64,000 nucleotides of DNA from NCBI GenBank assembly GCA_000004985.1, contig GG738851.1. The stretch is one strand, 5' to 3'. Source of the DNA: Naegleria gruberi (Eukaryota). Positions 20,001 through 40,804 of the stretch are shown piece after piece. The position numbers were made by a program, and so were the translations under genes. The notes under the pieces were generated by a model that was not told the origin of the DNA, did not search any database, and worked only from the letters and a program-made list of their open reading frames with translations. The first letter of the stretch is position 1; each line of letters begins with the position of its first letter.

Positions 20001-20347
20001 ACCATTCCTTCCATGGTTTCATTCTTGAACATTTTAAGGGCATATCCTTGAGTTTCATTCAACCGATCATTCAATACCCTCTCATAATCCCAATACTCTT
20101 GATGGTTCTCACTCATGGATCCCCAATTATCGGCATGACCAGTTGGAATACCTTGTTGGATGGATGGATTTTTCACAAGGTTCGGGCTGAGCCATCTCTG
20201 ATAGACATCCTCTGCCCGATTGAGGATTTGATAAGCTTGGACATGAGGAAAACAAATTATTTCATGATTATTTAATATTAATAGTGAAATAAGAGGAAGA
20301 ATGATGAAGATGATGAAATATTTAGGGAATGGAGAGGATTTGATCAT
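17075..20347 (-). CDS. Large (1090 aa) secreted/surface glycoprotein, unknown family; N-terminal jelly-roll/CBM-like region, C-terminal Pro/Ser/Thr stalk plus hydrophobic tail
   Basis: Single uninterrupted ORF with ATG at 20345-20347. It has a signal peptide (MIKSSPFPKYFIIFIILPLISLLILN), many N-x-S/T sites and the segment YSFYIDVTYTDWKSLWGQQVHFSVGSHDWEY...GTVYFDDIFVGEL, which resembles a carbohydrate-binding jelly roll. The C-terminus has SPQPISNSTANNSTNVPTPSPTHSS followed by the hydrophobic WIVIVIVLM. Confidence 0.65.
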   Translation of the reverse strand: MIKSSPFPKYFIIFIILPLISLLILNNHEIICFPHVQAYQILNRAEDVYQRWLSPNLVKNPSIQQGIPTGHADNWGSMSENHQEYWDYERVLNDRLNETQGYALKMFKNETMEGMVAYQYMNLFHTEPKAMFFSAWSKAVNVTGVGDDGYSFYIDVTYTDWKSLWGQQVHFSVGSHDWEYKYGVIFPEKPILFLTIYCIFRWGHTGTVYFDDIFVGELKTNLVTKFDKSFTVARVPESLPPIDLSKRIRKIESGNGLALSFDSEYGSIIGTSINGTELSPLSDFYVGGVFVKDFNSQQSNNASFILMTGSVLNNSDSSTLEVNSRNSELMLSTKTTYRATNLSIDIECIIENIDSQQSERALTVYIGIPISDFSMNWLWGDFIRMSRSVKETSSEFSSLTTFGNLGSNNGLIGLYPLAALATRMVNSSNVGIGIGVPADKPRIFRLAFNPGTRLLYVAFDIGLSALQTLSPNKATVQLSLFKLSKTEDSFGKPLAYPFRSAIDDYSLIFPDYFKVRIPNSQQGLWVAFSDLTQIEKIEDFGIGVHQIGDSDRDIPFGAQHNIRTFRYLTESSSAYIHLQRFSPQTDPSNYTQVIQATIDCGNNSALIEYDRVQCQTALVSGIKNKNGFYNYQDVDYPWCTKPCAVFIVNSQPGIRAKPPIPLNYLSKEESEWNEDARNIYLNPQHKFHNLSGEFFDSWGSNGYELDFSQDHLSVLNQSHLCFTYYNSRVGMVEWFSSIDYVDMITKFLHEHGGLGMSNGVLSEYFFGFNMIDNLGTEVVWINYNNAKYAPYSEAKLSFIRTLAYKKPYSTILNVKFSMINLEFVETYFRHCAFYAIYPSFFSADAMNSRYWDNPLLYNPHRELFKKYIPLIKKLNENGWEPDNGVRIYVENVDVDGPVVSESTPSVIVERYSTWPQTLLLTSFFSLSLTGNSNVSIEIDTRRVLREDIPLSSVNCTGLEANMVFDNITFPVLVHNSTTNCSVLRLGIPMEKVMKGVGLNGISQLISIPFKWNIVEQLNPISSPQPISNSTANNSTNVPTPSPTHSSYPVNKPIPSPIKSSHLGNLTINSSKKVHLNWIVIVIVLMNLSIN

Positions 20348-23128: not shown

Positions 23129-25280
23129 TTATCGATGTTTGAGTTTGTGTTTCAATTGTCTCTTGTCTGAGAGTGCCTTCTTCCACTTCTTTTCGTTTTG
23201 ACCCATGGTATTCTTGTGTCTGACGTTTCTGGACATCTTCAACATCATGTATGGCTTGTTCTTCTTCTTTTGCTTTTGAGTTTCTCCAGGTTGTTCCCAC
23301 TTTCTTCTGTTGAATTTCTTCTTTTCTGGTTCAAATTCATTGTCTGAATCGTCACCCTTAGAAATGTCACCAATATCATCTTCGTCAACATTTTCATTGC
23401 TAAAGATTGGGGTTTCTCTCTTTCTCTTCTTACCCATAAGCTTTTCCATTTCCTTGCTCTTTTTGAGTTTCTTAATCAACTCAAAGTCTTCTTGTGTAAG
23501 AATTCTGGTTTGATCAATTCTTGGGCCCTTTGGTTCCTCTGAAGCTTGTTCACCATCTTCAATGACTTCTTCTTCTTCACTGTCCAATTCGAAAACATCT
23601 TCCAAGTTCAACAATTCACCACCTTCCTCGTTATCAGATCCCTCAGAATCATCAGAGTCATCCATAGCAATATTGACATCATCTTCACCGTCGCTTGGAA
23701 CATCAATCCATTCACCTTCTTCATCAGAATCTTCACCATCAACAGCCATGAGATCCTTTTCAGATTCCTTTCTCTTATTGTATTCTTCCAATAATTCAAT
23801 GCCATCAACACCTTCAGCAACTCTTTGAGTACCAAATTCTGGAATGACTGCTTCAGGATCGTGATCTTTACCTCTGTCTTTCTTGTTCAACATCTTTGGA
23901 GAAAGTTCTCTGAAGAGTGTTATAATACCTCTAGCAGCATGGAAAACTTGTTTATCCTTATGTTTAGAATATTGAGATAAATCTCTCAAGAGGGTCTTGG
24001 TCATAACTCTTGGTTGTCTTGAACAAATAACTCTAATTGTATTCAAACCAGCTGCAATAACTTCTGGTTTGGAATGGTCATTAGCAAAATTGTTAGCAAT
24101 AGTCATGACGACTGGATGAATAACATCAGGAGGAACAAAATCGTGAACTGATTGGGCAGTAATGGCAAGAATCTTGGTAACATCTAAAAAATTGAAATAT
24201 ATCAGAAATTAAAATGTCACAAAACTTACTGGCTTGGGCAGGGAGTAAATATTTTTGAATGAAAGGATAAAAATTGAGAAGAACTAATTGATTTGAGGAA
24301 ACACATCTTGAAATAACGTCCAACATTAAAATTCTTACTTCAAATTTGTCATTTGAACTCTTCAATTTAGCAAAGAGTTTTTCAGAGAAACCTTGTGGAT
24401 CATTCAACATGTTGAGAACGTTCAATGATTCAATTTCCATACCCTTTTCCTTATGTTTATCCTTCTTTTTAAGTTGTTTGAGAGCTTTCTTAAATTTGTT
24501 TTCCTTTTTCTTTGTCTTTTTAGAGTGAATATTGTTAACTTTAAACTTTAAATCTCTAATCAAGTGACCAAGATCTCTATCATCTGATTTTTGTTTTGTT
24601 CCGTCTTCATCTTCTTCAGCTTCATCAACTAATTCACCCAAGAAGAATTTAAGTGCAATAACAACAAGAGCAGTATCTTCAGCAAAACATGATTGGGAAA
24701 TAACATTGACACATCTATCATCATTCCAAATACCTCTTCTATAAAGTGTAATTAAAAGTTGCAAACTCTTCTTTGCAGCAATACGGAATGAATCTTTCAA
24801 CATGGAAAAGACAAAGTTTTGCAATGATCTATTTACATTAGGATTCTTCTTCTTCATATTGATTTTAGTAATATCGGAGAGAATGTGTTTATAAACCATA
24901 CTTCTAAGAGTCTTATCATGTACTCGGAAAAGTTTAAATAATACTGGTATTAAAGTTTTAGAGTCAAGAATGTCGTTATTACGGAAAGCAATGAGTGTGA
25001 TAGCAAGTTGTCTTCTCAATTTTGGTTCTAATTCTAATTGTTTTGTTTCCAACAAATCCAAAATCATTGGTGCTGCAGTTTTGGTTTCTGCTTTATAAAC
25101 TTTGCAAGCAACACTCAAAAATTGCAACAATTTGACAAAATATTTAGCATCATCGGCTGGTCTCAATTTTGCAACTTCGGTTTGATTTTCCAAGTGTTTC
25201 AATTGAAGGAGGAAATCATCTTTATAAGCCTTTGGATCTTTAAAAACTTGTTCTTGAAGATGAAGGAGATCGATACTCAT
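23129..25280 (-). CDS. SDA1: SDA1 homolog (pre-60S ribosome export / actin organisation protein), 2 exons
   Basis: Exon 1 (24230..25280) encodes MSIDLLHLQEQVFKDPKAYKDDFLLQLKHL...VLLNFYPFIQKYLLPAQA and ends at a GTAAGT donor. A 46-nt intron (24184..24229) ends at a TTTAG acceptor. Exon 2 (23129..24183) encodes VTKILAITAQSVHDFVPPDVIHPVVMTIANNFANDHSKPEVIAAGLNTIRVICSRQP..., then an acidic region and a basic C-terminus. Confidence 0.8.
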
Positions 25281-25504
25281 TTTTTTTGAAGGTCAAAAAT
25301 AAAAATATTTTTGTTGAACAAGACAAAATTCGGATCGAGAGAATATTCATTATTTGATGAGAAATATTTGAATATTTCAAATATAATGATGAGAAGAGCT
25401 TTTTCACCATCGTTGGACCAGATTACATGATAAATTAAATTTGTTCGGAATAATGACTATTTGATGAAGAATTTAATATCAAATTTCTAATAAGAAAAAA
25501 AATA

Positions 25505-27135
25505 ATGAAAAAGTTGTTGCTTTCTCATCGAATTCAGCTTCTTCTTCGGTATTATCTAGAAGAGGAGTTCAACATATAGAAAGTAGTATTAGGAAGGGAA
25601 GTGGAGCATTAGGATTTTCTCTATTGAATTCTTCAAAGAATAGAGATTTTCATGGGAACTCTTATAAGCGAGGATACAATTTTAAAGGAACAGAATTGGT
25701 CAGAGATTTCATTCATGATTCATTATATAATCCAGAATATGGATACTTCAACAAGAGTCATGAATTAATTATCAGTCATCCATTGTTTGAAGGAAAGGAA
25801 AATGTGGGAGAAATTTCATCATCCGAAGCCTTTGAAGAATTACTTTTAAATAATACTCTTCCAAGAGAAGAACAAACAATTTTACCATTTACTGAATTAG
25901 AAGATCATTTGGATTACTTGGAAAATTTATCTGAATTGTATCAAAGAGGTCCACAAAGTTGGGGTACTCCAATCGAAATATTTCAACCTTACTATGGTAT
26001 TGCAGTGGCAGAACACATTTTGAAAACACAATATGGATCATCTATTAATCAATCTTTGGATAGACCTTTGAAGATTTATGAAATGGGTGGCGGTATGGGC
26101 ACTTGTTGCAGAAATATTTTGGATTATTTGGAGACTGATTATCCAGAAATTTACAAGAATACAGAATATCACATTATTGAAATTTCTTCACAATTACACG
26201 AGCAACAGAAAATCAGATGTGCTCATCATGTAACCAATGGAAAACTCAAATTACATCACGACTCGTTTATGGATTGGAAACAAGTGGAGCAGGATGAATG
26301 CCACGTTATTGCTATGGAAGTTTTGGACAATTGTGCTCACGATAAGATTTCAATTGATGCTGATGGAAATGTTAAGGAATGTCATGTATTTTTCGATAAG
26401 GGTAAAAATTACTATGAGGAAGTTTACCTTGATTGTAGAGACGAGTTAATTATTAGATATTTGACGCTGGCTGGGGTTATTGAGACTTCTAACACAAAAA
26501 CCAAATTTTCTCCTAATTTTACCTACACCTCTCTGCAGGATAAGACTAAAGGAGCATTTACCAAACTGATTCAATCATTCTCTTCCAAATCCACAAATGG
26601 GATGAGATCACTCCTCATGAACTCCATTGGAGGAGACCATGTATTTTACATCCCAACAGTACAATTACAAATTATTGAAAAATTACAACAAAATTTCCCA
26701 AAACACCACTTTATTTGTGCCGATTTTGACTACTTGGGAACAGATGAATCTGGAGAAAGCAACAGACCACTCGTACAAAAGAAATTCAAATTCATGAAAA
26801 CCTCTAATTTATTAAGAAAGATCAGAGAGAAACGAACACTCTTTCTAAGTCCTGAAGATATCTCATCAGAGGACAATTTCTCCATAGAGTCACATGCATT
26901 CAGATCGTATCTAGTTCCAAAAGGAGAGTGTGATATTTTCTTTGCCACCGACTTCAATATCATGCAACAAGTTTACAGCAAAGTTTGTCAAGATCAAGGT
27001 GGCCTAAGAGGATCACTCGTCATGAAATCATCTCAATTCATGAAAGAATATGCAGAGTATGAAAATTTTACTACAAAATCAGGATACAATCCATTATTGA
27101 AAGATTACACAAACTTTTCATTCTTCCTCAGTTAA
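25505..27135 (+). CDS. NDUFAF7: NDUFAF7 / MidA-family mitochondrial protein arginine methyltransferase (complex I assembly factor)
   Basis: The main exon (~25593..27135) encodes ELVRDFIHDSLYNPEYGYFNK...PIEIFQPYYGIAVAEHIL...KIYEMGGGMGTCCRNILDYL...HIIEISSQL, the DUF185/MidA methyltransferase fold. The reported start at 25624 is a TTG. A short 5' exon (25505..25548) encoding MKKLLLSHRIQLLLR, a mitochondrial presequence, probably joins via a ~44-nt intron with a GTATTA donor. That junction is inferred from frame only. Confidence 0.7.
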
Positions 27136-27221
27136 ATTGATTTAAAAATACAAGTCAATCACGTTTTGTTCACCACCATAATTATGGCGCGTCTACTTTT
27201 TATGGAATTACATAAGAAAAA

Positions 27222-28763
27222 ATGTACACCAAGCACATTGTGGCCTTGTTTTGTTTCGTCTTGTTGTGTGATGTTGTTGCTGTCAATGCAGCAGCAGACA
27301 TTCTCTCACAAATGATGGAACAAATTCAACAAGTAAAATCATCATCGTGCAGGTACACTGCCACAGGTGTTGATTTCTCACAATGTAACGGTTATTCTAA
27401 AGGCATACTTCCTCCCATGTATGCAATGTTAGGATATAATCCAACCTCGACCGATCTATTCACCCTTCCTATCACCGAACCGAGTACAAACATTATTGTT
27501 GAGGGATATTTTAACCCTCAGGATGTTCTGCCGAATGTATGCGAATTCGAAAGTGGCTATTCTACACTCTTCCAAAATTCAACACCTAATAACTCTGAAT
27601 TTACACCAAATTTATTTTGGAATTTCAATACTAATGACTATTCAAATATATTTGGAAATGTTCTTGACATTCAACATTCGTGTTCACTTCAAAGTGAAAC
27701 CTTTGTTGCGTACAAAACTAATTCAGCAAATCTTGATTCTAATTTCAAGAAAATTATTTCACTACTTCCTATGGAGTATAATGAACAAGTTTATTCTTTA
27801 TTTTACAATAGTTATGGACCTTTAGTTTCAAAAGGTAAATATGGAGGAAGTAGAATTGAGACAATTGTAAAATCTTCAAATTTAGGTGTGAATAGAGATA
27901 GTTCAAAAGTGAAAATTGTTGGTGGTTATTCTGAAAAGGATAAACAGAGTTGGTCTTATTCTGTCTATAGGAATCCAACTATGGTTGATGTTGAGTTGAT
28001 TAGGATGAGTGATTTTATTAGAAATTTGAATTTGGCCTCTAGTAAGGTGATCAAAAACATGATTAGATTTGAAAAATCATTGTTAACAAGTATTTCTAGT
28101 AGAGATGTATACCAATCGATCTTGGAGCAAAACCGTCCTTGTAAGAATATTATACTTTCTAATATGTATGAAATCTATATACACTATGCATGCTATGTTC
28201 CAAACGTGTACACAAATGACTTAATTTCAAGAACCTATGGTTATCAAACCAAATCAGAAAACATTTTCAAATATGGGGTTATGGGAAAGGTTTGGAATTT
28301 AGATTTAAAATGTGGTCCTTCAGAAACAATGAATTTTGACAGAAATCATAAATCAAAATTCTTTTCATTGCGTTCCAATAATGAGCCACCTCAATACCCT
28401 TTCACTAGACCAGTATATTTTGATTTGAATGAATTTAATAGCCAAAACAAAAATGACTACCGACATTTCAGAGAGGCAGCACCCTATTGGAAATCAGATA
28501 TTGGAAGTAGGACACCTTTAGGAATTTTGGGTTACTGCTCTCCAGTCAAGTTAAAAGGTATGAAGCCATTGAATTTATACAAGTATAGCATCAATGAAGG
28601 GTTTGGACATTATTTGAGTATTTATTCACCTTCAACACCACCTTTAGAATACAATATTGGTTATACATATCCTCCAGATACTGGTATTGTACAGAAACAA
28701 ATCGAATCAGGAGATCCTGATTTGATATATTTCAAAGTTTGTGTGGAATTGGAAACAGATTAA
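27222..28763 (+). CDS. Secreted protein with MACPF-like signature (YGPLVSKGKYGG), 513 aa; paralog of convergent neighbour
   Basis: ATG at 27222 and a signal peptide (MYTKHIVALFCFVLLCDVVAVNAAAD). The internal block LFYNSYGPLVSKGKYGGSRIETIVKSS resembles the MACPF motif Y-x6-[FY]-G-T-H-[FY]-x6-G-G. Its stop codon overlaps the stop of the minus-strand paralog (TTAA at 28760-28763). Confidence 0.6.
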   Translation: MYTKHIVALFCFVLLCDVVAVNAAADILSQMMEQIQQVKSSSCRYTATGVDFSQCNGYSKGILPPMYAMLGYNPTSTDLFTLPITEPSTNIIVEGYFNPQDVLPNVCEFESGYSTLFQNSTPNNSEFTPNLFWNFNTNDYSNIFGNVLDIQHSCSLQSETFVAYKTNSANLDSNFKKIISLLPMEYNEQVYSLFYNSYGPLVSKGKYGGSRIETIVKSSNLGVNRDSSKVKIVGGYSEKDKQSWSYSVYRNPTMVDVELIRMSDFIRNLNLASSKVIKNMIRFEKSLLTSISSRDVYQSILEQNRPCKNIILSNMYEIYIHYACYVPNVYTNDLISRTYGYQTKSENIFKYGVMGKVWNLDLKCGPSETMNFDRNHKSKFFSLRSNNEPPQYPFTRPVYFDLNEFNSQNKNDYRHFREAAPYWKSDIGSRTPLGILGYCSPVKLKGMKPLNLYKYSINEGFGHYLSIYSPSTPPLEYNIGYTYPPDTGIVQKQIESGDPDLIYFKVCVELETD

Positions 28764-30079
28764 GAGGCAGGATAAATATAACACATAAAATATTCTTTTT
28801 TGAATTGTGAGGGTGCTGTGCTTCCATAATAATGATAATAATTAAAATACCTATTAAGCTCAATCATTCCCGCATATTGCTTTGAAGAACAGTATCCTAT
28901 TGGATAAACATATGTGTTTGAGTCTTTTGCCACCTTGTCAACTTCTGCTTTGGAACCAGTCACAAATGATTCATAAGCTATCTTTTGGTATTGAATTTTG
29001 TAATTTTGAGCCAAATAAATTGGCAAATCATACTTGTCAGATTTTTCGTGAGAAAGAATTCCAATAGCCCTTTTTCTTAAAATTCTATAATTCATAAAAT
29101 TAATATAGTTTAAACTCTCTGAAAATGGAACCAATTTGTAAAACCATTTGTAATAACTTAAATATTGAGATTGATCCTTATTCGATTCAGCTGTGATTTC
29201 GCCAAACATGAATAAATTATTCGTGCAACTATCTGAAAGTGAGTACCAATTATCAAAGGATTGATCAATGTAATTTGTGTCCAGAAGTGGTAAATTTGAC
29301 TGGCTCAACATTTGTAATACTCTTTCATTGGTTAGTTCATACTTTTTAAGATATTCACTCAAAGTCATAATTGAAAAACCGGCTTTTCCTGGATATTGAA
29401 TTATATCTTGTTCGAAAGTTGTCGAATTTCCTTTCCCTCCTATTAATATTTCATCTTGATTACTAATTATTTGCGAAGAAGCACAAGAACTACTACTATA
29501 ATTAGCAAACAATCGAATTCCTCCATATTTGATATTTGTCACAACATAGGGACCATAAATTTGAAAGAAATTATTGAAAATTTTCTCATCTGTACTTCTT
29601 TCAAGAGCTGCAAGAGCACTCATCATTTCACTATTGTGTGAAATTGACATTTTCTCATCTGCTTCACTTGTAATGTAGTACTGAGCACTAATTGTGCACG
29701 ATAACTTTAGTTTCAATACATTAGAATAGAAACTCTTGTATCTATTCATTGTAAAAGGCCATAGTGGTGAATGTGGACTCATACTTTCTGATAATACTTT
29801 GTTTAGTCCATTCGTAGTGATTGTAGAGGAAAGTAACGTTTCACCCAACAAGGAAGTGTTACCTACCCCCTGATCACACACTCCATCTACAGTGTATTCC
29901 ACTGGTTTCGGCAATGAATATTTGGTTTTGTAATTTGTGAAGGCAATATTCTTGGAGAATGTGATTCCACCATTTTGTGAATATTTTGCAGTGACAGAGA
30001 AGGGTCTTGTTTGTTGTTGATGAGTTGGATGACCACACAGAAGGAGAAGATGCAACAACAGAATGACTGCAAGTCTCAT
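28760..30079 (-). CDS. Secreted paralog with MACPF-like signature (YGPYVVTNIKYGG), ~440 aa
   Basis: The ORF runs to 30124. The hydrophobic signal peptide MRLAVILLLHLLLLCG begins at ATG 30077-30079, with an alternative ATG at 30124. FFQIYGPYVVTNIKYGGIRLFANYSSS aligns to LFYNSYGPLVSKGKYGGSRIETIVKSS of the plus-strand neighbour. Confidence 0.6.
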   Translation of the reverse strand: MRLAVILLLHLLLLCGHPTHQQQTRPFSVTAKYSQNGGITFSKNIAFTNYKTKYSLPKPVEYTVDGVCDQGVGNTSLLGETLLSSTITTNGLNKVLSESMSPHSPLWPFTMNRYKSFYSNVLKLKLSCTISAQYYITSEADEKMSISHNSEMMSALAALERSTDEKIFNNFFQIYGPYVVTNIKYGGIRLFANYSSSSCASSQIISNQDEILIGGKGNSTTFEQDIIQYPGKAGFSIMTLSEYLKKYELTNERVLQMLSQSNLPLLDTNYIDQSFDNWYSLSDSCTNNLFMFGEITAESNKDQSQYLSYYKWFYKLVPFSESLNYINFMNYRILRKRAIGILSHEKSDKYDLPIYLAQNYKIQYQKIAYESFVTGSKAEVDKVAKDSNTYVYPIGYCSSKQYAGMIELNRYFNYYHYYGSTAPSQFKKEYFMCYIYPAS

Positions 30080-30175
30080 TACACATTCTCTTTCCATTTT
30101 TTCATGTTTTAAAACATATCGCATTAGTTATTGGAAAATGGCCGAAACGTGATTAAAGGTCAATATGAGAAAAAA

Positions 30176-33100
30176 ATGAAACAGCTTCAGAGGAAATACA
30201 TTGCTCACCAAGTGCTTATTCTATTGTTTGTCTTTTTAGCATTGTTTTCAAAAAGAACAATGTGTAACAAAGCTCTTGGGATCTCAACAATTGTTGTGGG
30301 AAACTTGACTAATCCGTTTGGCCTCTCCATAACCAATCAATCACTACTAGTGGCCAATACCATTGGTCAGACAATCCTCTATGTAGATTTGAATAATTAC
30401 TTTAATTATAGTGTCATTGTGGGTGTGAAAGATGTTGCTGGATTTAACGGAGATGGTCAATTGACATATTTAAATATTACACTTGCCAATCCACAAAAAG
30501 CTTTTAAATATAATTCATTGATTTATGTGGCCGACACTTGGAATCAGAGAATTAGAGTTATTGATGGGAATTTTATGTATACTTTAATTGGTGATGGTGA
30601 ATGTGGTGATTCCAAGAATGGAAATGATTTAAAATCTTTTCAATTATGTAATCCAACGGATATATTCGTATTGGATGATATAATTTATATATGTGATTCT
30701 AATAATCATAAAATAAGAAAGATACAAAATGGAACTGTTGAAACCATATGTGGAAATGGTGACAATGGATTTAATGGAGATGATATCAAGGCAGTTGACG
30801 CAAGTTTGAATGAGCCTCAATCTATATACGTTACCAGAAACACTAAAGGAACAGACCATATATTATATATAGCCGATACAAGCAATCATCGAATTAGGAA
30901 AGTGGAAAACGGAATTATTTCAACTATTTGTGGAAATGGTGAAAGTAAATATAATGGGGATTTGATTCCTGCTAAAGAAGCTTCTCTAAACAATCCAAAA
31001 TCTGTATTGGTAACATCTGTTGGTGAGGTTTATTTCAGATTTTTCAAATAATAGAATTAGAAAAATTTTGACAAATCAAACAATAATGACAGTAACAGAT
31101 TTAATAGATTCTCCAACAGGAATGAGTTTGGATGAAAAGAATAGCACTTTATATGTTTCTGAATTTCTTAAAGGTCAAGTGAAAAAGATTAGTTTTCAAT
31201 GTTCATATGGATATAAGATAGATTCGTATTTCAATTGTGAACCATTCTGCGAAAATGAATGTAAACATGATGGAATATGTATTGCACCAAACAAATGTGA
31301 TTGCTACTCTAAATATGATGGAGATTATTGTCAATATCCTATTTGCTATGGAATTCCAAGTAATATTAATTCCACATGTTCCAAAAATGGGGAATGTCAA
31401 GATTTTAACAAATGCCAATGTTATGATGGATATTTTGGAGATGATTGTACAGGAATACTTTGCTTTGGAAAGAACACAACAGATGCAACTGTTTGTTCTG
31501 GGCATGGTAAATGCATTGCCAAGAATCAGTGTTCCTGTACAGATGACATGTTTGGAGGATTGGAGTGTCAATATCCTAAATGCAGGGGAATAGAATCTGA
31601 TAAGAAAGAAGTATGCTCATCACATGGTAAATGTGAAGCTCCAAATACGTGTTCATGCTTTGAAAACTATGTTGGAGAGGACTGCCAGTTTATTTCTTGC
31701 TTTGGAAAATATTCGAATGATTCTAATGTGTGCTTTGGAAATGGCAATTGTTCTTCACCAGATTTTTGCGCGTGTAGAAAAGGTTATACAGGAACTGAGT
31801 GTGAATATACTACTTGCTTTTGGAAAGTTTCAAACGATTCCTCTGTTTGTTCAGGACATGGCAAGTGTGTGAAACCTGACACTTGTGAATGTTCCAATCA
31901 TGATCAGTTTACCGGTATTCAATGTGAAATACCAATCTGTTATGGTGTTCCAGCAAATAATAACAGTGTTTGCTCTTCACAAGGTACTTGTATTGATGTA
32001 GAAAGTTGCCAATGTAACTTGGGATATCATGGACCTATGTGTAATGTAATTGAATGTTTTAATCAATATTCCAATCAGAGTAGTGCCTGCAGTGGTCACG
32101 GGCAGTGCATTCTACCAAATCTATGCCAATGTCATGAGAATTCTTTCACTGGACTTGAATGTGAACTTCCAGTATGTAACAATATTACACAAACTGATCC
32201 AAGAGTATGTTCTGCTAATGGAGAATGCAAAGCAATCAATGATACTACGATATGTGATTGTAGGAATGGATATGCAGGAACTGATTGCGAATTTCCAACT
32301 TGTCTTGGAATTCCTTCATCTGATGTCGACAGAGTTTGTGGTGGAAAGGGAGATTGCTTGGCCCCTAATTTGTGTAAATGCAAAGATGGACTATATGATG
32401 GATTATATTGTGAATTTCCAACATGTAGTGGAAAATCAATGAGAAATAATACGGCATGTAGCGGTTTGAATCAAGGAATTTGTGAATCTCTAAACAATTG
32501 TGTCTGTAAACATGGATATACAGGAAACGAATGTCAAATTCCAATATGTTTTTCTGAATTGTCATCGTCACCTCTTGTATGCAGTGGACGTGGTACTTGT
32601 ACATCAGCTGACCGTTGCAAATGTAAGAACGGCTATTCAGGAAAGAATTGTGAAGTTCCTCATTGTTTTGGTATCAGTGCTAATCTTTCAAGAGTTTGTA
32701 ACTGGAGAAATGGTACCTGTGTTGATAAGGATCGATGTGAATGTAATTTAGGATATCATGGCAATAATTGTCAAGTTCCAACTTGTAATGGAATTCTCTC
32801 TACTGAGCCGTCATGTTGTGGAGGACCATTGCGAGGTCAATGTTTGGCTCACAACTCTTGCTCATGTGCCCATGGTAAATATGGTGGACCAAATTGTGAG
32901 TTTTCCTATTGCTTTGGAATACTTTCGAGTGAGGCAAATGTTTGTAAGGGAACGGGAACTTGTATTTATCATGACAAGTGCGAATGCCATCTTGGTTACG
33001 CTGGTAGTGATTGTGGAGTCCCTTTAGAGGCAGTGTATATTGCCTCATCGATTGGCGGAGTTATTGTCTTGGCCTTATTAGTCATTCTCCTTGTTGTTTG

Positions 33101-34316
33101 TTCCTTGTATTTGAGAAAAGTTATTAAGGCAAAGCAAAATTTGAAAAGAATGGAGAATCTTGTCGATGATAGGGAAATGTATACATCATTGGTAGAAACC
33201 AGTTTTCACAGCACATCCTCGAAGGATTTGTTTTTAAATCCGAGTGACTTTCAACCAATTCAGGGACAATACAGAGCCATGGAAGGTGGGCAAGGAAAAG
33301 TCTACGTCGCCAATTATATTGGTATCAAAGTTGCACTTAAAAAGTTCCATAACAATGTTCCAAATGATGACATGGACGAATTGTCAAATGGAATTTCTGA
33401 AGACATTGAAAAGGAAATGAGAATGTTAAACGGTCTAAGACATCCAAGTATTGTTACATTTTATGGATATACTCTCTATAATGGATCTCCTTCCATGGTT
33501 ATGGGATACGTTCCTCACGCCCTAAATTCAATCATTTACAAAATAAGGAGAGGTCAGAAAATGAGTTTGGATTTGAAAATTCAAATAATTTACAATGTTA
33601 GTCAAGGATTGGAACATTGTCATACAAGATCTCCTCCAGTGATTCACAGAGATATAAAATCAGCAAATATTTTACTGGATGTCAAGTCTGAAGAGGAAAA
33701 TATTATTTCAGAAGTAACAGAAGTCAAGATTTGTGATTTTGGATTAAGTACTAAAGCGGATAGAGCTGAAACAAAGGTTATAGGTACTCCACATTATATG
33801 GCACCTGAGCTATTTACTTTGAGAAATATGTACACTGACCTGTTTGTAAATGATGATGAAGATGAAGATGAAATTACAGATGGCAGCTTTGATGATTCAG
33901 TGGATTATGACACATCTTCCGATGTATATTCTTTAGCTATTGTTATGTGGGAGCTATTCTTTGAATTACCACCGTATGACATGTCCGTTTATGATCAATG
34001 TCATCCTTCACTTTTTAGAAAAATTGCCAAACATCGAAAAATGTCTGCCCAAGCCTCCAAAGATTTACTTTCAAGAGGTATTCTCCTGAGTAAGGCTAAT
34101 TTCAGACCATTCATCCCATTCGATGATAGCAACACTCAAGATTGGTTATTGAATTACAGAACCTTTGATGTTAAATTATTTGGAATTGACCAACTTGAAA
34201 CCTTAACTAAACAATTCATAAATCTCATGAAAGAATGTTGGAAGACAGATCCATATCAAAGACCTCAATCTTCCAAACTCAAAGAACAACTCCAAAAGAT
34301 GCTGAATAAGAAATAA
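30176..34316 (+). CDS. Receptor-like Ser/Thr kinase: extracellular NHL-repeat beta-propeller + ~25 EGF-like (tenascin/integrin-beta type) repeats + TM + TKL-type kinase domain; apparent 1-nt frameshift near 31030-31045
   Basis: ATG at 30176 (MKQLQRKY..., a signal anchor). The NHL motifs are YVADTWNQRIRVI, YICDSNNHKIRKI, YIADTSNHRIRKV and FISDFSNNRIRKI. The fourth NHL unit straddles the switch from ORF 30131..31051 to ORF 31020..34316, which lie in different frames. The cysteine repeats are about 31 aa each (C..G.C.....C.C..G..G..C). The TM helix is IASSIGGVIVLALLVILLVVCSLYL. Kinase motifs are VALKKF, HRDIKSANILLD, DFGLS and GTPHYMAPE. Confidence 0.75.
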
Positions 34317-35977: not shown

Positions 35978-38900
35978 ATGACGTCCAGAGTGTTTCCTCA
36001 ATCACAAAACACAGCTAGAGTCGCAGGAAGTGTAGTACTAAACGATGCAGAAACTTCCTCTCAATTTGGAGCAGGAACTTCTACCACTTCAAGCTCATTT
36101 GCTTCATCATTGGGTGGGAAAAGTGTTGTAAACAATGCAGGAATAAGTATTTTCTCACTGATAACAACTCTAAGACCTAAAGATACACTAGTTGGTGACG
36201 AGAATACTTACATGTTCCTAGGAATGATATTCTATCATATCTACTTGATATACAACTCTGTAATACTCTCATCACTTTCAACACCAATGATTAGAGATGA
36301 CGATACTAGAACATTGTGGGGAGTTATACCTGGTTGGATATGGAGAGCTTTGTATTTTCCAATCAATTGGGCATCTGAATTCTATCCTTACTTTCTAATT
36401 ATTTCACTATCAATAGCGTTTCTAATTTTACAATTTTCAACTTGTTTTGGAATTTATTATTGTAAATGGGCTTCAAGAAAGGGAGGAAAATTATTTGGAA
36501 GGATCAAGACATTTCTGCTGAATTCATTGTTATTCCAAAGAACTTTTACTTTATTCATCTTGTCTATTCATGCAATTTTGTTATCTCCAAATCTGGATTC
36601 CCAAAATGGAACTTTATATTATTTTCCAAGTCAATCTTTCAGCTCAGTGATACAAATAGTTTGTACCGTAATAGGATGTGTTGGAATATTGTTGAATATT
36701 GGTTTGACGGCTATTGCAACACTTTTAACTGCTGAAACGAGCCCTAAATTGAGCAAAAGAATTTGGTTTTCATTGTATTCAATTTCGCCTTTCATGTTCT
36801 TTAATTTTGTGAATCAAATTAGTTTAGTTTCAACTATTATTTGTACAGGACCTTATACCTATGTTGCTTCTATTGTGAAGATTGTAATGAACGTATTCCT
36901 GCTTATAGTAACGATGAAATCCTTACCATTCTTTAGAAAATGGGAGAATTGCTTTTATTTGGCATTGGTTAGTTTGAAAGTTTTTACTCCAATCCCAACT
37001 TTAATTTTGCAATTTCTTTCCTCGAATCAATTGAATCAACAAGAGATTGGTGGAATAATGACTGGTGTTACTTTTGCAACGGCAGTCATTTCTTTTGGAT
37101 CTGGCTTTATTATTTCTTACGTTTGGTTAGTAATTGAAATGAAATCAGTCAGAAATATGATTTCTAATAAGGAAGACAGTTCCGCAGCATTGCTTCTTCT
37201 TGAGAAATCAAAAAAGAAACAAGATAGTCTTTCACTATTCCTAAGATTTGCAAGCAATAGTGCTCCAGAAATGAAAGTGAGGGAAGGAAGCGATTTTGAC
37301 TTGGCCAAACATGCTGTAAACACACTAGTCAAACCAATTGAAAATGTTGAACTGTTAATTGTCAGTTCCTTATTTGTATCATTTGGTGGTATTCCAGATT
37401 ATGATAGTTCTCAATCATTTAGTATTGGATTGGCTCTATTACAAAAATCTCAACGAATTTCACCATCACTAGCTCAGGTATTCAATATCATGTTAAGAAA
37501 TGAAGAAATAGAATATCATGCCTTTCATGGAAATAATCTTGAAGTTTTAAGAAAACTTGTAATGGTTGAAAAGAAAGTGAAATCATTGTCTAGATGCCAC
37601 AAGTCATTCTTTAAAGAATTATTGAATGATAAACCATCTATTGGTAAATTAGAACAGATTAATAGTGCCAGTTGTTCAATTTATAACGAATGCGACACAA
37701 TTTATGATAATTTACTGGCTTCTAATAGATCCAACAAGACTCTGTTGAGATCGTATGCTTCCTATTTGGAAAAATACAAGTGGGAAATCCAGTTAGCAAA
37801 ACAATTATTTGAGGAAGCTCAAGACAATGATGAAGATAAGAATAAGCAACCGTTTAAGGCATACGAATCCTCATTCCATAAAGGGAACACCTCTAGGTTT
37901 AGTATAGATTCACAAAGAGCTAATATGGATGGTTGGGATTCAGTAAGTGTTGCTGGTGTAGAAGAGAATGACGAAGAAAGAAAAGATCATGTTTTGAGAA
38001 TGGCAATCAACTCTCCTATGTCAACAATTGTATATTCCACATTGTTTTTCCTATTCTGTGCTCTCTCAGTACTAACTATTTGTATCGTTGCTCCCGTTTC
38101 ACTTGTATTTTCTCAGAGTATCAATGAGAGAATGACCATGCAAGAGAAGGTATGCCTAATGACCTCAGTTCCATACAAATTATTAGCTCAGATTCAAGCA
38201 CTTCAAACAGAATATAATTTGAGAGGAAATAATACTGAAAAGCTACTTAATTCTACCATTGATTATACTAATAACTTGTTGGATACTGTTAAAACAGTGG
38301 TATCGGCTGGAGACAATAATATGCTAATGCCAGAAGTTGCCAGAGAATATTTGAAAAATCAATACGAACTTCAACTTCCAATTACAAATGATTCATTAAT
38401 TGGAAAGGAAATTCCTGCATATACAGCCACCAACGCCTCTATTCAATTCTATTTATCTGCTATGTACACTCATGGAAAGACCTTGTTAAATGAATTTAAT
38501 GCTATGGACGGACTGGTTTCGAATACCGATGAGAATTATGCTTTCTTATTTATTTTCTACAATAGAATTCCAATGACTTTAGCTTTCAATAGCTTGTGCT
38601 CTAAATTTGTTGAAGAAAGTGTATCTTCAATTGAAACAAATTTTGAACGCTTGTGGATAATCACAGTTTCCACTCTGGTAACTTATTTGAGTATTTCACT
38701 AATTTTCTTTACAATATTATTCACACACTCGAGAAGACTTGTTGTTGAGCTCAAAGAAATATTTAGAAGAATAACCAAAGATGAAATAGGGAAAGTTTAT
38801 CACAATTTCGAAAAGAAAATAGATGATTCTATTAGCTCTTCAAATAACCTTTTGAAAATGAGCAATATCCTAATGATTGGAAGTTTCCTCTTTGTAATCA

Positions 38901-40804
38901 TCATCTGCCTATGTTCCTTACTAGTCATTGTAGAGCTCAACAGCAACACCAAACAAAGTGCTCAATCCATGAATATTGTCGGTTCAATCAATGCAGTTTC
39001 ATTAAGAACTGCAAGAACCAACTTTAGATTACTCTGGTATATTGATAGGATAAAGTATTTAACCTTGGAACCTTCATTTGTTAACCAAGAAAATAAGCAA
39101 GATTTACTAGATTTGAGAACTTATTGGAATTATGTTGTGGTAGGCGATGAATCAACTTCTTACACATCTGCCATTTATGGAAAATATGATGATGTTGATT
39201 ATATATTATCTGATCTTTGTAATGATACTATTTCAATGGCTGATCCTTGTCACAGTTTAACTGCTGCCTTGACTGATTACATTACAAAAGCTCTTGATTA
39301 CAATGAAGTGTTCTATTACCAAAAAAAGAGTCAGACATTTATGGTAAATGAATATTTTGGGAAGATATTCTATGTTACGCAGACAATTACTTCCAATTTA
39401 CAAACTTTAATCTCTGCTCTTGTCACTCATGAAAAGGTTTCAAGTGTTGGGATAACAGCTTCTATGATTAGCTTATGTTTTATTTCCGCAATTTTATATG
39501 CTGTCATATGTTATTCATCCTTGAATAGGTATTGGAAAGAAAGAGCTTGTTTGAGAATGATGTTGAATTATATCAATTTAGATCTCATTGAAAGCAATTT
39601 GATATTGAGAGAATATGTCATGTCAAATGTTGTTCCTTCCTCAAAGATTTCCTCTAAAATAGTGCCATCTTTTGAAAGTGAGAAAGAAAAGGATGAAAAG
39701 ATTGAAATGGTCAAGACCATATTGAATGGAGGCGTAGATTCTGCAATTATTTGTGATAAGGATGGAAATATTACAATTTTCAATAATTCTGCTGAGGAAA
39801 TGTTTGGCTATTCCAGATCACAAGTTTTAGGTTTACCAATTCAAACTCTATTCACTTCTGAATATTCTGAGAGAATCATGAAATTGGTTTCTACTGGTGA
39901 ATCGCATGATTCATTCGAAGCAATGTCTCAGAGACGAAACAAGACTCATTTCTCTTCAAAGGTTTCAGTTTCCATTTCCATTCATGAAAAGAAACAAATT
40001 TTGATTGTCTTTATTCGTGATATTACTCCAGAAAAGAAACAGAGTTTATTAATTGCTGAGGAAAAGAAGAAGAGTGAAGATTTACTTTTGAATATTTTGC
40101 CAATGTCCATGGCTTCAAAATTGAAGAATGGTGAGGAGCATTTATATGAAAAAGTGAATGATATTACTGTTTTCTTTAGTGATATGGTTGGATTTACTGC
40201 ATGGAGTTCAAAACTGCAACCTAGTGAACTAGTTCATATCCTAAACTCGATTGTTACTGGATTTGATAAGCTGACTGAAATTCACTTGATTGATAAGATT
40301 AAAACTATTGGAGATGCCTATTTTTGTGTAAGTGGATTACACTCATGTAAATCTTCCGATCACCCAGAAAGAATGTTAAAGTTTGCCATTGAAATTATGT
40401 CCTTTTTAAAGAATATCAACACATCAAATCAAACATTAATTAATGTGAGAATTGGCATGCACACAGGCGATGCTGTTGGAGGAGTCATTGGATTTAAAAA
40501 GTTTGCCTACGATCTGTGGGGTGATACCATCAATACTGCCTCTCGTATGGAATCAACATCACTTCCAGGTAGAATTCAAATTTCCAGATCTACCTATGGA
40601 AGAGTTTATGACCTATTCGAATTTGAAGAGAGATTAATTGAAGTGAAAGGAAAAGGAGAATGTCAGACTTATCTACTGAAAGAGAAACATCATGAGAATC
40701 CAATAGCTCTTAATAACATGGCACAAGTGGAAGATAATGATCATTTAGAAGTTTCACAAGGACCATTTTCAAGCCATAAAGAAGATGAGCAACAGCAACA
40801 GTAA
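35978..40804 (+). CDS. Multi-pass membrane, PAS-domain-containing class III adenylyl cyclase (1608 aa)
   Basis: Single ORF with ATG at 35978. The N-terminal polytopic domain has about 8 TM helices. Further TM pairs bracket two exoplasmic loops of about 150-180 aa. The PAS domain is ILNGGVDSAIICDKDGNITIFNNSAEEMFGYSRSQVLGLPIQTLF. The cyclase core carries FSDMVGFT, KIKTIGDAYFCVSGL, IGMHTGD, AYDLWGDTINTASRMES and PGRIQIS. The Lys in KIKTIGD and the Asp in DLWG are the adenine-specifying residues, so this is predicted to be an adenylyl cyclase. Confidence 0.85.
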   Translation: MTSRVFPQSQNTARVAGSVVLNDAETSSQFGAGTSTTSSSFASSLGGKSVVNNAGISIFSLITTLRPKDTLVGDENTYMFLGMIFYHIYLIYNSVILSSLSTPMIRDDDTRTLWGVIPGWIWRALYFPINWASEFYPYFLIISLSIAFLILQFSTCFGIYYCKWASRKGGKLFGRIKTFLLNSLLFQRTFTLFILSIHAILLSPNLDSQNGTLYYFPSQSFSSVIQIVCTVIGCVGILLNIGLTAIATLLTAETSPKLSKRIWFSLYSISPFMFFNFVNQISLVSTIICTGPYTYVASIVKIVMNVFLLIVTMKSLPFFRKWENCFYLALVSLKVFTPIPTLILQFLSSNQLNQQEIGGIMTGVTFATAVISFGSGFIISYVWLVIEMKSVRNMISNKEDSSAALLLLEKSKKKQDSLSLFLRFASNSAPEMKVREGSDFDLAKHAVNTLVKPIENVELLIVSSLFVSFGGIPDYDSSQSFSIGLALLQKSQRISPSLAQVFNIMLRNEEIEYHAFHGNNLEVLRKLVMVEKKVKSLSRCHKSFFKELLNDKPSIGKLEQINSASCSIYNECDTIYDNLLASNRSNKTLLRSYASYLEKYKWEIQLAKQLFEEAQDNDEDKNKQPFKAYESSFHKGNTSRFSIDSQRANMDGWDSVSVAGVEENDEERKDHVLRMAINSPMSTIVYSTLFFLFCALSVLTICIVAPVSLVFSQSINERMTMQEKVCLMTSVPYKLLAQIQALQTEYNLRGNNTEKLLNSTIDYTNNLLDTVKTVVSAGDNNMLMPEVAREYLKNQYELQLPITNDSLIGKEIPAYTATNASIQFYLSAMYTHGKTLLNEFNAMDGLVSNTDENYAFLFIFYNRIPMTLAFNSLCSKFVEESVSSIETNFERLWIITVSTLVTYLSISLIFFTILFTHSRRLVVELKEIFRRITKDEIGKVYHNFEKKIDDSISSSNNLLKMSNILMIGSFLFVIIICLCSLLVIVELNSNTKQSAQSMNIVGSINAVSLRTARTNFRLLWYIDRIKYLTLEPSFVNQENKQDLLDLRTYWNYVVVGDESTSYTSAIYGKYDDVDYILSDLCNDTISMADPCHSLTAALTDYITKALDYNEVFYYQKKSQTFMVNEYFGKIFYVTQTITSNLQTLISALVTHEKVSSVGITASMISLCFISAILYAVICYSSLNRYWKERACLRMMLNYINLDLIESNLILREYVMSNVVPSSKISSKIVPSFESEKEKDEKIEMVKTILNGGVDSAIICDKDGNITIFNNSAEEMFGYSRSQVLGLPIQTLFTSEYSERIMKLVSTGESHDSFEAMSQRRNKTHFSSKVSVSISIHEKKQILIVFIRDITPEKKQSLLIAEEKKKSEDLLLNILPMSMASKLKNGEEHLYEKVNDITVFFSDMVGFTAWSSKLQPSELVHILNSIVTGFDKLTEIHLIDKIKTIGDAYFCVSGLHSCKSSDHPERMLKFAIEIMSFLKNINTSNQTLINVRIGMHTGDAVGGVIGFKKFAYDLWGDTINTASRMESTSLPGRIQISRSTYGRVYDLFEFEERLIEVKGKGECQTYLLKEKHHENPIALNNMAQVEDNDHLEVSQGPFSSHKEDEQQQQ

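What the first reader, a model, noticed from the sequence alone, without database searches (positions are those of the whole stretch)
30176..34316. NHL-propeller + 25 EGF-like repeats + TKL kinase receptor, interrupted by an apparent 1-nt frameshift
The domain combination is unusual for a protist receptor kinase. It pairs an extracellular NHL six-blade-type propeller with about 25 tenascin- or integrin-beta-type EGF repeats and an intracellular HRDIKSANILLD kinase. The fourth NHL blade is split between two reading frames at about 31030-31045. The transition from ...VTSVGEVYF to SDFSNNRIRKI requires a shift of one nucleotide. That could be a homopolymer sequencing error, a recent pseudogenisation of an otherwise intact 1.3-k-aa gene, or much less likely recoding. 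An 11-nt GTTTATTTCAG segment at the junction has GT..AG ends but does not restore frame.
Basis: seen in the sequence. Interest (0 to 1): 0.55.

Follow-up and report, generated by a model that had tools for sequence, protein, structure and literature searches.

The report
Frameshifted NHL–EGF receptor kinase gene
This is one Naegleria gruberi gene for a cell-surface receptor kinase, with a six-bladed NHL propeller, 15 EGF repeats, one membrane span and a kinase. A small indel breaks its reading frame, the public annotation has split it into two "predicted proteins", and the break is either a very young null mutation or a consensus error rather than exotic biology.

Summary
The window is Naegleria gruberi NEG-M. 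The reading-frame break is real in the sequence. Frame A runs from ATG 30176 to stop 31049-51, and frame B is open from 31014 to stop 34314-16. RefSeq annotates the two halves as adjacent genes, NAEGRDRAFT_63568 (263 aa) and NAEGRDRAFT_63569 (1064 aa). They belong to one type I receptor: signal peptide, six-bladed NHL propeller, 15 six-cysteine EGF units (not about 25), one transmembrane helix, and a kinase with all catalytic motifs whose closest solved relatives are TKL kinases. The break lies at 31034-31038, inside a beta-strand of blade 5. Homology fits a 2-nt deficit best (GEVYF-[S/T]-DFSNNRIRKI, 76-80 bits), then a 1-nt excess (at most 69 bits). I reject it as an intron because it scores 56 bits, deletes a strand, and the two real introns examined in this window are 46 and about 103 nt. 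A +1 shift at AAA-TAA is rejected as well (59 bits). No other lesion exists in 1,380 codons, so the break is very recent or an artefact, and the tools cannot tell which. The architecture is rare but not unique: three uninterrupted NHL-EGF-kinase proteins occur in metagenomes, and NHL-EGF ectodomains are common in Naegleria. Low interest.

The parts
30176..30253 (+). Start codon and signal peptide (MKQLQRKYIAHQVLILLFVFLALFSK...). The RefSeq model starts at the second ATG (30260) and lacks it.
   Evidence: Hydropathy peak at residues 7-26; sequence; P0001 sequence.
30266..31036 (+). NHL beta-propeller, blades 1 to mid-5, read in frame A (positions = 2 mod 3).
   Evidence: Pfam NHL 1.2e-12 and TEN_NHL 2.8e-11; blade HMM hits; AlphaFold2 model with pLDDT 91.2.
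31034..31038 (+). Frame-break site (tat ttc a|gat). The best repair is 2 inserted nt, giving GEVYF-[S/T/A]-DFSNNRIRKI. It lies inside model strand 255-259 of blade 5.
   Evidence: Exhaustive repair scoring; tblastn frame switch; N. fowleri P0322 has GEIYFTDFNNNRIRKL; strand assignment.
31023..31038 (+). 16-nt GTGAGG...TTTCAG segment. It restores the frame if removed, but I reject it as an intron.
   Evidence: Scores 56.3 bits against 76-80 for the 2-nt repair and deletes the GEVYF strand. The two real introns examined in this window are 46 and about 103 nt.
31049..31051 (+). Frame-A stop codon TAA (context AAA TAA TAG), which is the end of RefSeq model XP_002681045.1.
31035..31199 (+). Rest of blade 5 and blade 6 of the propeller, read in frame B (positions = 0 mod 3).
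   Evidence: RefSeq model XP_002681046.1 starts at ATG 31122, inside blade 6.
31248..33014 (+). 15 tandem six-cysteine EGF-like repeats of tenascin/teneurin type, period 39-41 aa.
   Evidence: Cysteine-pattern count; Pfam EGF_TEN 7.8e-60, EGF_2 5.7e-47, EGF_Teneurin 1.9e-35.
33036..33107 (+). Single transmembrane helix (VYIASSIGGVIVLALLVILLVVCSLY) followed by a basic stop-transfer stretch LRKVIKAKQNLKR.
   Evidence: It is the only internal hydropathy peak.
33282..34286 (+). Protein kinase domain with VALKK, HRDIKSANILLD, DFG, APE, DVYS..WE and the subdomain-XI Arg all present, and an acidic insert after APE.
   Evidence: Pfam Pkinase 1.7e-39 and PK_Tyr_Ser-Thr 2.2e-28. The best solved relatives are MLK1/MLK4, CTR1, Roco4 and RIPK1.
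34314..34316 (+). Stop codon of the gene (frame B).

Best explanation
Positions 30176-34316 are a single Naegleria gruberi gene for a type I receptor-like kinase. Its parts are a signal peptide, a six-bladed NHL propeller, 15 EGF repeats, a transmembrane helix and a cytoplasmic TKL-like Ser/Thr kinase. By analogy with other receptor kinases, the propeller and EGF stalk would bind an extracellular ligand or surface and the kinase would relay the signal. That function is inferred, not shown.

In the sequence as recorded, the gene is broken by a small indel at 31034-31038, most probably two missing nucleotides, in the middle of a beta-strand of blade 5. Translation from ATG 30176 therefore ends at 31049-51 and gives a 291-aa secreted fragment that cannot close the propeller. 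The EGF-TM-kinase part has no signal peptide of its own.

I lean slightly towards the indel being a genuine, very recent mutation: a null allele or young pseudogene of a lineage-specific receptor in the sequenced haplotype of a heterozygous, probably polyploid clonal strain. It is not an intron and it is not recoding.
For: One gene. The homologue alignment and the blade consensus run straight across the break. The repaired N-terminal 329 residues fold in silico as a closed six-bladed propeller (pLDDT 91.2, pTM 0.90). That model matches the NHL propellers of NHLRC2, a teneurin-like protein, teneurins, TRIM71 and PknD. RefSeq model 63569 begins inside blade 6 and has no signal peptide. Uninterrupted NHL-EGF-kinase proteins exist elsewhere, and P0349 is one ORF on a 4.9-kb contig.

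Indel, not splicing or recoding. Among all repairs, a 2-nt insertion scores 76-80 bits, the best 1-nt deletion 68.9, the 16-nt GT..AG removal 56.3, and a +1 shift at AAA-TAA 59.4. No frame-restoring GT..AG pair up to several hundred nt in length beats the indel repairs.

Recent. There is no other stop or frameshift in 1,380 codons of 33% GC DNA. All 15 EGF units keep six Cys (one unit has a seventh), and all kinase motifs are intact.

Lean towards a real mutation. A 2-nt deficit outside any long homopolymer is an unusual consensus error for an assembly that, as I recall, was Sanger-based (my own knowledge). The gene belongs to a fast-evolving family with no relative above about 40% identity, where gene death is expected. 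No second copy of either half exists in the 15-billion-protein collection, although 3 of 3 neighbouring genes that could be checked have a near-identical ENA twin. This last point is weak.
Against: A single lesion in an otherwise perfect 4.1-kb ORF is also what a consensus error looks like, and draft Sanger assemblies do contain such errors. The preference for 2 nt over 1 nt rests on about 9-10 bits from a small HMM built from 17 distinct blades of two paralogues. No reads, ESTs, RNA-seq or second genomic copy covering 31030 could be reached. The missing ENA twin may only reflect fragmentary 2-kb metagenome contigs.
Confidence: 0.48

Rival explanations
1. The gene is intact in the organism, and the frameshift is a base-calling or consensus error in the draft N. 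gruberi NEG-M assembly that was carried into RefSeq as two gene models.
For: There is one lesion only. Everything else is intact, including 15 EGF units that each keep six Cys, the kinase motifs, the signal peptide and the TM helix. A scan of the 64-kb window for overlapping or abutting long ORFs in different frames gave three pairs: this one, a pair explained by a real 46-nt intron, and a third pair at 176-1091 that was not resolved. One unexplained break in 64 kb is compatible with a low background error rate.
Against: The best-fitting repair needs two bases, and the site is not a long homopolymer (TTT) or a GC compression. No independent sequence shows the intact version.
Confidence: 0.42
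2. A tiny 16-nt spliceosomal intron (GTGAGGTTTATTTCAG, 31023-31038) is removed, which restores the frame.
For: It has GT..AG ends, a GTGAG-like donor and a T-rich tract before CAG, and its length of 16 = 1 mod 3 restores the frame.
Against: Splicing would delete GEVYF, a core beta-strand of blade 5 that is conserved in every paralogue blade. It scores 56.3 bits against 76-80. The two real introns examined in this window are 46 nt (GTAAGT..TTTTTAG) and about 103 nt (GTATGT..TATAG). No longer GT..AG pair does better.
Confidence: 0.02
3. Programmed recoding joins the frames: a +1 or -2 ribosomal frameshift, or transcriptional slippage. One candidate is the AAA-TAA at the end of frame A, which resembles the Euplotes +1 motif.
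For: Frame A ends in AAA TAA (31046-51), the Euplotes-type +1 context, and the downstream ORF is fully intact.
Against: Homology puts the switch about 10 nt upstream, before the conserved Asp. The AAA-TAA product ...FRFFKNRIRKI scores 59.4 bits against 76-80. At the homology-defined site (UAU UUC A GAU) there is no slippery re-pairing, no stop codon and, to my knowledge, no rare codon (own knowledge, codon usage not checked). The T runs are only 3 and 5 nt, too short for polymerase slippage. I know of no frameshifting of this kind reported for Naegleria nuclear genes (own knowledge), and the ORF scan of this window turned up no further candidate.
Confidence: 0.02
4. The two ORFs are two genuine separate genes, as annotated: a secreted NHL protein and an EGF-kinase protein.
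For: RefSeq lists them as NAEGRDRAFT_63568 and NAEGRDRAFT_63569.
Against: Model 63568 ends in the middle of a strand of blade 5, and model 63569 starts inside blade 6. The ORFs overlap by 38 nt, so there is no intergenic space. ORF B has no signal peptide, so about 620 aa of disulfide-rich EGF repeats would have to cross the membrane without one. Homologues carry both parts in one chain.
Confidence: 0.03

Closest known systems
Heterolobosean receptor-like kinases (N. lovaniensis C9374_004390, C9374_014406, C9374_001521; N. fowleri FDP41_007123; Willaertia magna ABK040_003088)
   Same: They have the same overall plan: a large ectodomain, one TM helix and a C-terminal TKL-like kinase, 1,000-1,200 aa in total. 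They are the closest kinase domains found, at 29-34% identity over the whole domain. One of them (P0188) also has teneurin-type EGF repeats.
   Different: None of the eight scanned has an NHL propeller. No ortholog is above about 40% identity, so this is a lineage-specific member. All of them are uninterrupted ORFs.
Uncultured-eukaryote NHL-EGF-kinase proteins from JGI metagenomes (P0338, P0341, P0349; contig Ga0506608_001328)
   Same: The domain order is identical, NHL then EGF then kinase. P0349 is encoded by a single uninterrupted 4.4-kb ORF in 36% GC DNA.
   Different: The kinase domains are only 24-26% identical, which is more distant than the Naegleria RLKs. The shared architecture may therefore come from independent domain shuffling. 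They also have more NHL blades and fewer EGF units.
Naegleria NHL-EGF surface proteins without kinase (N. fowleri FDP41_011322 = P0322; N. lovaniensis C9374_010972 and C9374_003885; N. gruberi P0342, P0360, P0383)
   Same: These are the best matches to the ectodomain, at 32-36% identity over 850-1,000 aa in one HSP running through the break. P0322 has GEIYFTDFNNNRIRKL at the homologous position.
   Different: Pfam detects no kinase domain in P0322 and P0360, and none is listed in the precomputed Pfam domains of the others.
Mycobacterium tuberculosis PknD (PDB 1rwl sensor domain)
   Same: It is a receptor Ser/Thr kinase whose extracellular sensor is a six-bladed NHL beta-propeller. The model matches 1rwl at E = 4.5e-12 with target-normalised TM-score 0.79.
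   Different: PknD is bacterial and has the opposite topology, with the kinase N-terminal and the propeller C-terminal. It has no EGF stalk and its Hanks-type kinase is not close in sequence. The resemblance is analogy, not membership.
Teneurins and the teneurin-like protein 9ifo
   Same: They combine tenascin-type EGF repeats with an NHL propeller in one ectodomain. Pfam TEN_NHL, EGF_TEN and EGF_Teneurin all hit, and 9ifo_A is the best structural match (E = 2.2e-20, query-normalised TM-score 0.81).
   Different: Teneurins are type II proteins with EGF before NHL and a YD-shell/Tox-GHH region, and they have no kinase. Here the order is NHL then EGF, the topology is type I, and there is a kinase.
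TKL-group kinases (MLK1/MLK4, CTR1, Dictyostelium Roco4, RIPK1)
   Same: They are the closest solved kinase domains by sequence, at E = 6e-23 to 1e-14. The HRDIKSANILLD catalytic loop is of the TKL/RLK-Pelle type.
   Different: Similarity is only about 30% and covers mainly the N-lobe through the activation segment. There is a large acidic insert after APE. No phylogeny was done, so the group assignment is provisional.

Membership tests
NHL-repeat six-bladed beta-propeller | NHL repeat profile matches above the curated threshold | tested here: met
   PF01436 scores 47.6 bits (cut-off 20) and PF25021 scores 43.5 bits (cut-off 27.1). The paralogue blade HMM gives 4 strong hits and 1 weak hit, and there is also a degenerate N-terminal blade.
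NHL-repeat six-bladed beta-propeller | Six four-stranded blades closing into a ring | tested here: met
The AlphaFold2 model has pLDDT 91.2, pTM 0.90 and 24 strands. Foldseek matches NHLRC2, the teneurin-like protein, Pizza6, TRIM71 and PknD at E = 1e-12 to 1e-20. The alignment behind the model has only 10 sequences.
NHL-repeat six-bladed beta-propeller | Encoded by one continuous reading frame | tested here: not met
   The frame switches at 31034-38, inside strand 255-259 of the model. Frame A stops at 31049-51.
EGF-like repeat array (tenascin/teneurin type) | Tandem units with six conserved cysteines, and profile hits above threshold | tested here: met
   There are 15 units of 39-41 aa, all keeping six Cys (one has a seventh). 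EGF_TEN scores 202.8 bits, EGF_2 158.2 and EGF_Teneurin 121.
Eukaryotic protein kinase, TKL-like | Catalytic residues: VAIK Lys, alpha-C Glu, HRD, DFG, APE and the subdomain-XI Arg | tested here: met
   VALKK, EKEMRML, HRDIKSANILLD, DFG, APE and YQRP are all read directly from the translation. The third glycine of the G-loop is replaced (GGQGKVY).
Eukaryotic protein kinase, TKL-like | Groups with TKL kinases rather than other kinase groups | tested here: inconclusive
   The top PDB sequence hits are MLK1, CTR1, MLK4, Roco4 and RIPK1, but WNK and Aurora follow closely. No phylogeny was built.
Type I single-pass receptor kinase | N-terminal signal peptide, a single TM helix and a cytoplasmic kinase with a positive-inside flank | tested here: met
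   There are only two hydrophobic segments, residues 7-26 and about 955-978, and the second is followed by LRKVIKAKQNLKR. Hydropathy was the only test; no dedicated predictor was available.
Spliceosomal intron at the junction | GT..AG ends, frame restoration, a length typical for the genome, and preservation of the conserved protein | tested here: not met
   The 16-nt candidate has the right ends and phase. However, it is about 3 to 6 times shorter than the two introns examined locally (46 and about 103 nt), and it removes a conserved strand (56.3 against 76-80 bits).
Programmed +1 ribosomal frameshift (Euplotes AAA-TAR, Ty1 CUU-AGG-C, antizyme UCC-UGA types) | A shift-prone motif located where the frames must switch | tested here: not met
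   AAA-TAA exists, but it lies downstream of the homology-defined switch and its product fits poorly (59.4 bits). No known motif is present at UAU-UUC-A-GAU.
Old, decayed pseudogene | Multiple disabling lesions, loss of conserved motifs | tested here: not met
   There is a single lesion and all motifs and cysteines are retained. The finding is compatible only with a very young pseudogene or null allele.
Young pseudogene or null allele | The lesion is present in genomic reads, and the transcript is absent or degraded by NMD | not testable with these tools
   No reads or transcripts were reachable. Exact-protein look-ups and metagenome scans found no second copy.

The most novel reading that the evidence does not exclude
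The frameshift is real and fixed in N. gruberi, and the cell still makes the full receptor by a non-standard +1 or -2 decoding event at UAU-UUC-A-GAU, or at the AAA-TAA a few codons on. To my knowledge this would be the first programmed frameshift reported in a heterolobosean nuclear gene.
Probability: 0.02. Interest if true: 0.7.

Novelty: new member of a known kind. Interest (0 to 1): 0.2.

Why it matters
The main value is for annotation. RefSeq XP_002681045.1 and XP_002681046.1 should be merged, or flagged as one disrupted gene, and the start should move to ATG 30176 so the signal peptide is included. This matters for counts of Naegleria receptor kinases and for domain-architecture surveys, which at present see an orphan 263-aa NHL protein and an EGF-kinase with no leader.

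Biologically, the locus adds an NHL-EGF-TKL receptor to the poorly described heterolobosean receptor-kinase repertoire. It also shows that teneurin-style NHL and EGF modules are joined to kinases in free-living amoeboflagellates. If the lesion is real, it is a small example of receptor-gene turnover in a heterozygous clonal protist. None of this opens a long-standing question.

Tried and rejected
- **Stentor-like tiny intron or Euplotes-like +1 frameshift.** I considered both at first sight and rejected them on homology scoring and on local intron lengths. The 1,098-codon ORF B (about 95 Cys codons) has no in-frame TGA, so a UGA=Cys code is not in play.
- **All GT..AG pairs with length = 1 mod 3, up to several hundred nt.** None beats the indel repairs.
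- **Word-indexed homology search with the C-terminal 510 aa.** It missed even the 100% self hit P0141, so I discarded the apparent lack of Naegleria relatives. The exhaustive search and an exact look-up corrected this.
- **Independent DNA over the junction.** Exact-protein look-ups gave nothing on record for P0001, ORF B, ORF A from ATG 30176, ORF A from TTG 30131, and the downstream EF-hand ORF. A gapped DNA pattern spanning the junction had 0 hits in JGI metagenomes. A protein-guided scan of the same collection found only relatives at 38% identity or less.
- **ENA metagenome contig.** One contig is 99.54% identical to window 26617-28994, but it stops 2 kb short of the junction, and I could not reach neighbouring contigs.
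- **Literature.** There were no hits for the locus tags, for Naegleria with NHL repeat, for Naegleria gruberi with receptor kinase and EGF, or for PRJEB11402. The N. gruberi genome paper is not held in the library.
Full report
**Identity of the window.** A search with the repaired N-terminal 430 aa returned a 99%-identical 263-aa "predicted protein [Naegleria gruberi]" on a 693,645-bp scaffold (P0001). Exact look-ups showed that RefSeq annotates two adjacent models here. XP_002681045.1 / NAEGRDRAFT_63568 (263 aa) runs from ATG 30260 to the frame-A stop. XP_002681046.1 / NAEGRDRAFT_63569 (P0141, 1064 aa) runs from ATG 31122 to 34316. The frame break is therefore part of the public NEG-M assembly and has been handled by splitting the gene. 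The window has 28-39% GC per 2-kb block (about 33% overall) and is very gene-dense.

**Checking the observation.** Frame A (positions = 2 mod 3) is open from 30128 to the TAA at 31049-51. Its first ATG is at 30176 and gives a typical signal peptide. Frame B (0 mod 3) is open from 31014 to 34316, so the two overlap by 38 nt.
- Pfam finds NHL and TEN_NHL in ORF A. In ORF B it finds EGF_TEN, EGF_2, EGF_Teneurin, Pkinase and PK_Tyr_Ser-Thr.
- tblastn with the N. fowleri homologue P0322 follows frame 2 up to ...SVGEVYF and then resumes in frame 3 at FISDFSNNRIRKI.
- The core observation is correct, with three corrections. The EGF array has 15 six-cysteine units of 39-41 aa, not about 25. The interrupted repeat is the fourth that an NHL HMM recognises but is blade 5 of 6 in the fold.

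**Where and what the lesion is.** I built an HMM from 17 distinct NHL blades of two N. gruberi paralogues, P0018 and P0044. With it I scored every single-nt deletion, every 2-nt insertion and every 3n+1 deletion in 31005-31052.

| Repair | Score (bits) |
|---|---|
| 2-nt insertion between about 31029 and 31038 (GEVY[FI][SAT]DFSNNRIRKI) | 76-80 |
| Best 1-nt deletion | 68.9 |
| Removal of the 16-nt GT..AG | 56.3 |
| +1 shift at the terminal AAA-TAA | 59.4 |
| Frame A alone | 54.9 |

- N. fowleri P0322 reads GEIYFTDFNNNRIRKL at the homologous place, just before its EGF array. This matches GEVYF-x-DFSNNRIRKI exactly in length.
- The sequence tat ttc a|gat therefore lacks two bases of one codon. 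The ancestral form could have been TTC ACN GAT, TTC TCA GAT or TTT TCA GAT. A single extra T is a less good fit.
- The site is not in the T5 run.
- No frame-restoring GT..AG pair of any length tested, up to several hundred nt, beats the indel repairs.

**Introns in this genome.** A scan of the window for long same-strand ORFs that overlap or abut in different frames gave three cases.
- One is this gene.
- The second, an SDA1 homologue on the minus strand, is joined by a canonical 46-nt intron (24229->24184, GTAAGT...TTTTTAG). The Pfam profile coordinates are continuous across it, 1-289 and 289-364.
- The third pair, at 176-1091, was not resolved.
- The EF-hand gene downstream has an intron of about 103 nt, GTATGT...TATAG.

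A 16-nt intron would be far outside this range and would delete a core strand, so splicing is rejected.

**One gene, one protein.** With the two bases restored, residues 31-359 give a high-confidence AlphaFold2 model (pLDDT 91.2, pTM 0.90, 24 strands).
- Its best structural matches are six-bladed NHL propellers: the teneurin-like protein 9ifo, the quenching-protein lumenal domain 7djj-m, NHLRC2, Pizza6, TRIM71, and the M. tuberculosis PknD sensor 1rwl.
- The break falls in model strand 255-259 of blade 5.
- RefSeq model 63569 starts inside blade 6 and has no leader peptide.
- The whole protein has only two hydrophobic segments: the N-terminal signal and a TM helix at about 955-978, which is followed by LRKVIKAKQNLKR.
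- Read separately, the halves make no structural sense. Read together, they form a standard type I receptor.

**The kinase.** VALKK, the alpha-C Glu, HRDIKSANILLD, DFG, APE, DVYS..WE and the subdomain-XI Arg are all present. The third G-loop glycine is replaced, and there is an acidic insert after APE. The closest solved kinases are MLK1/MLK4, CTR1, Roco4 and RIPK1, all of the TKL group. "TKL-like" is therefore reasonable, but no tree was made.

**How unusual is the architecture?** An exhaustive HMMER search with the TM-plus-kinase segment found nothing closer than 33-40% identity apart from the protein itself.
- The best full-length matches are 1,000-1,200-aa receptor-like kinases of N. lovaniensis, N. 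fowleri and Willaertia magna.
- Their ectodomains mostly have no Pfam family. One has EGF repeats and none has NHL.
- A search with P0141 showed that NHL plus EGF ectodomains without a kinase are common in Naegleria: P0301, P0313, P0322, P0342, P0360, P0383 and P0399.
- The same search found three JGI metagenome proteins (P0338, P0341, P0349) with the same order, NHL then EGF then kinase. P0349 is a single uninterrupted ORF on a 4.9-kb contig.
- The kinases of those three are only 24-26% identical to this one, more distant than the Naegleria RLKs at 29-34%. The shared architecture may be convergent shuffling of modules that are common in these organisms.
- The combination is uncommon but not unique.

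**Real mutation or sequencing error?** The rest of the gene is flawless: 1,380 codons without a stop in AT-rich DNA, and all cysteines and catalytic residues retained. The lesion is therefore either an artefact or very young.
- I looked for independent sequence and found none over the junction. Exact-protein look-ups found nothing. A gapped 39-mer pattern had no hit in JGI metagenomes. A protein-guided scan found only relatives at 38% identity or less.
- A second N. gruberi-like source does exist. ENA metagenome contig ERZ929261 k127_204444 is 99.54% identical to window 26617-28994, with 10 SNPs and 1 indel at a stop codon. All three neighbouring genes that could be checked have such an ENA twin, whereas neither half of this gene does. 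With contigs of about 2 kb this is weak evidence.
- A 2-nt deficit away from long homopolymers is not a typical Sanger consensus error (own knowledge). Lineage-specific receptor families also lose members readily.
- On the other side, a single lesion in a perfect ORF in a draft assembly is the classic signature of an error.
- I put a real, recent null allele or young pseudogene at about 0.48 and an assembly error at about 0.42. An intron, recoding and "two genes" together get less than 0.1.

**Mechanism.** What is shown is the domain composition, the topology signals, the in-silico fold, the position of the break and its nature as an indel. What is inferred is that the intact protein would be a ligand- or surface-binding receptor that signals through a TKL-like Ser/Thr kinase, and that the recorded allele would yield only a 291-aa secreted propeller fragment that cannot close.

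**Verdict.** This is an ordinary disrupted or mis-assembled gene of a lineage-specific receptor-kinase family. The finding is useful as an annotation correction, is of low general interest, and its open question can be settled by inspecting reads.

Noticed in passing
window 24184-24229 (- strand): An SDA1-homologue gene is split into ORFs 24126-25292 and 23129-24208 by a canonical 46-nt intron (GTAAGT...TTTTTAG). The Pfam SDA1_HEAT profile is continuous across it. It is the shorter of the two real introns I examined in this window and a useful yardstick.
   Followed up: yes
window 26617-28994; locus L002: ENA metagenome contig ERZ929261 (ERR1078381, PRJEB11402) k127_204444 is 99.54% identical to the window, with 10 SNPs and 1 indel at 27134 at the stop codon of the methyltransferase gene. 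A second N. gruberi-like strain or haplotype is therefore present in a public metagenome. Its reads could settle the frameshift question.
   Followed up: partly
window 30124-30176 and 28760-28763: Gene packing is extremely tight. The start codon of the minus-strand MACPF-like gene (30124) and that of the receptor (30176) are 51 nt apart, head to head. The two weakly MACPF-like genes 27222-28763 (+) and 28760-30124 (-) overlap tail to tail by 4 nt.
   Followed up: no
window 30176-30260: RefSeq XP_002681045.1 starts at the second ATG (30260) and so omits the signal peptide that is encoded from ATG 30176.
   Followed up: yes
window 35978-40804 (+): A 1,608-aa uninterrupted ORF carries a TmcB-like TPR region, a PAS domain and an adenylate/guanylate cyclase catalytic domain. 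Naegleria is reported to contain at least 81 cyclases (PMC9928731), so this is probably one of them. The exact ORF sequence is not in the protein collection, so the RefSeq model probably differs.
   Followed up: no
window 176-1091 (- strand): Two ORFs of about 150 codons (636-1091 and 176-625) lie in different frames and are separated by 10 nt. Neither has a Pfam hit. This could be another short intron, a frameshift or chance.
   Followed up: no
window 17075-20347 (- strand): A 1,090-aa ATG-initiated ORF has no Pfam family at E <= 1e-3.
   Followed up: no
(tool behaviour): The word-indexed protein search with an EGF-plus-kinase query missed the 100%-identical database entry P0141, apparently because its 8,000-candidate limit was swamped. 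Negative results from that tool for repeat-rich queries should not be trusted.
   Followed up: yes
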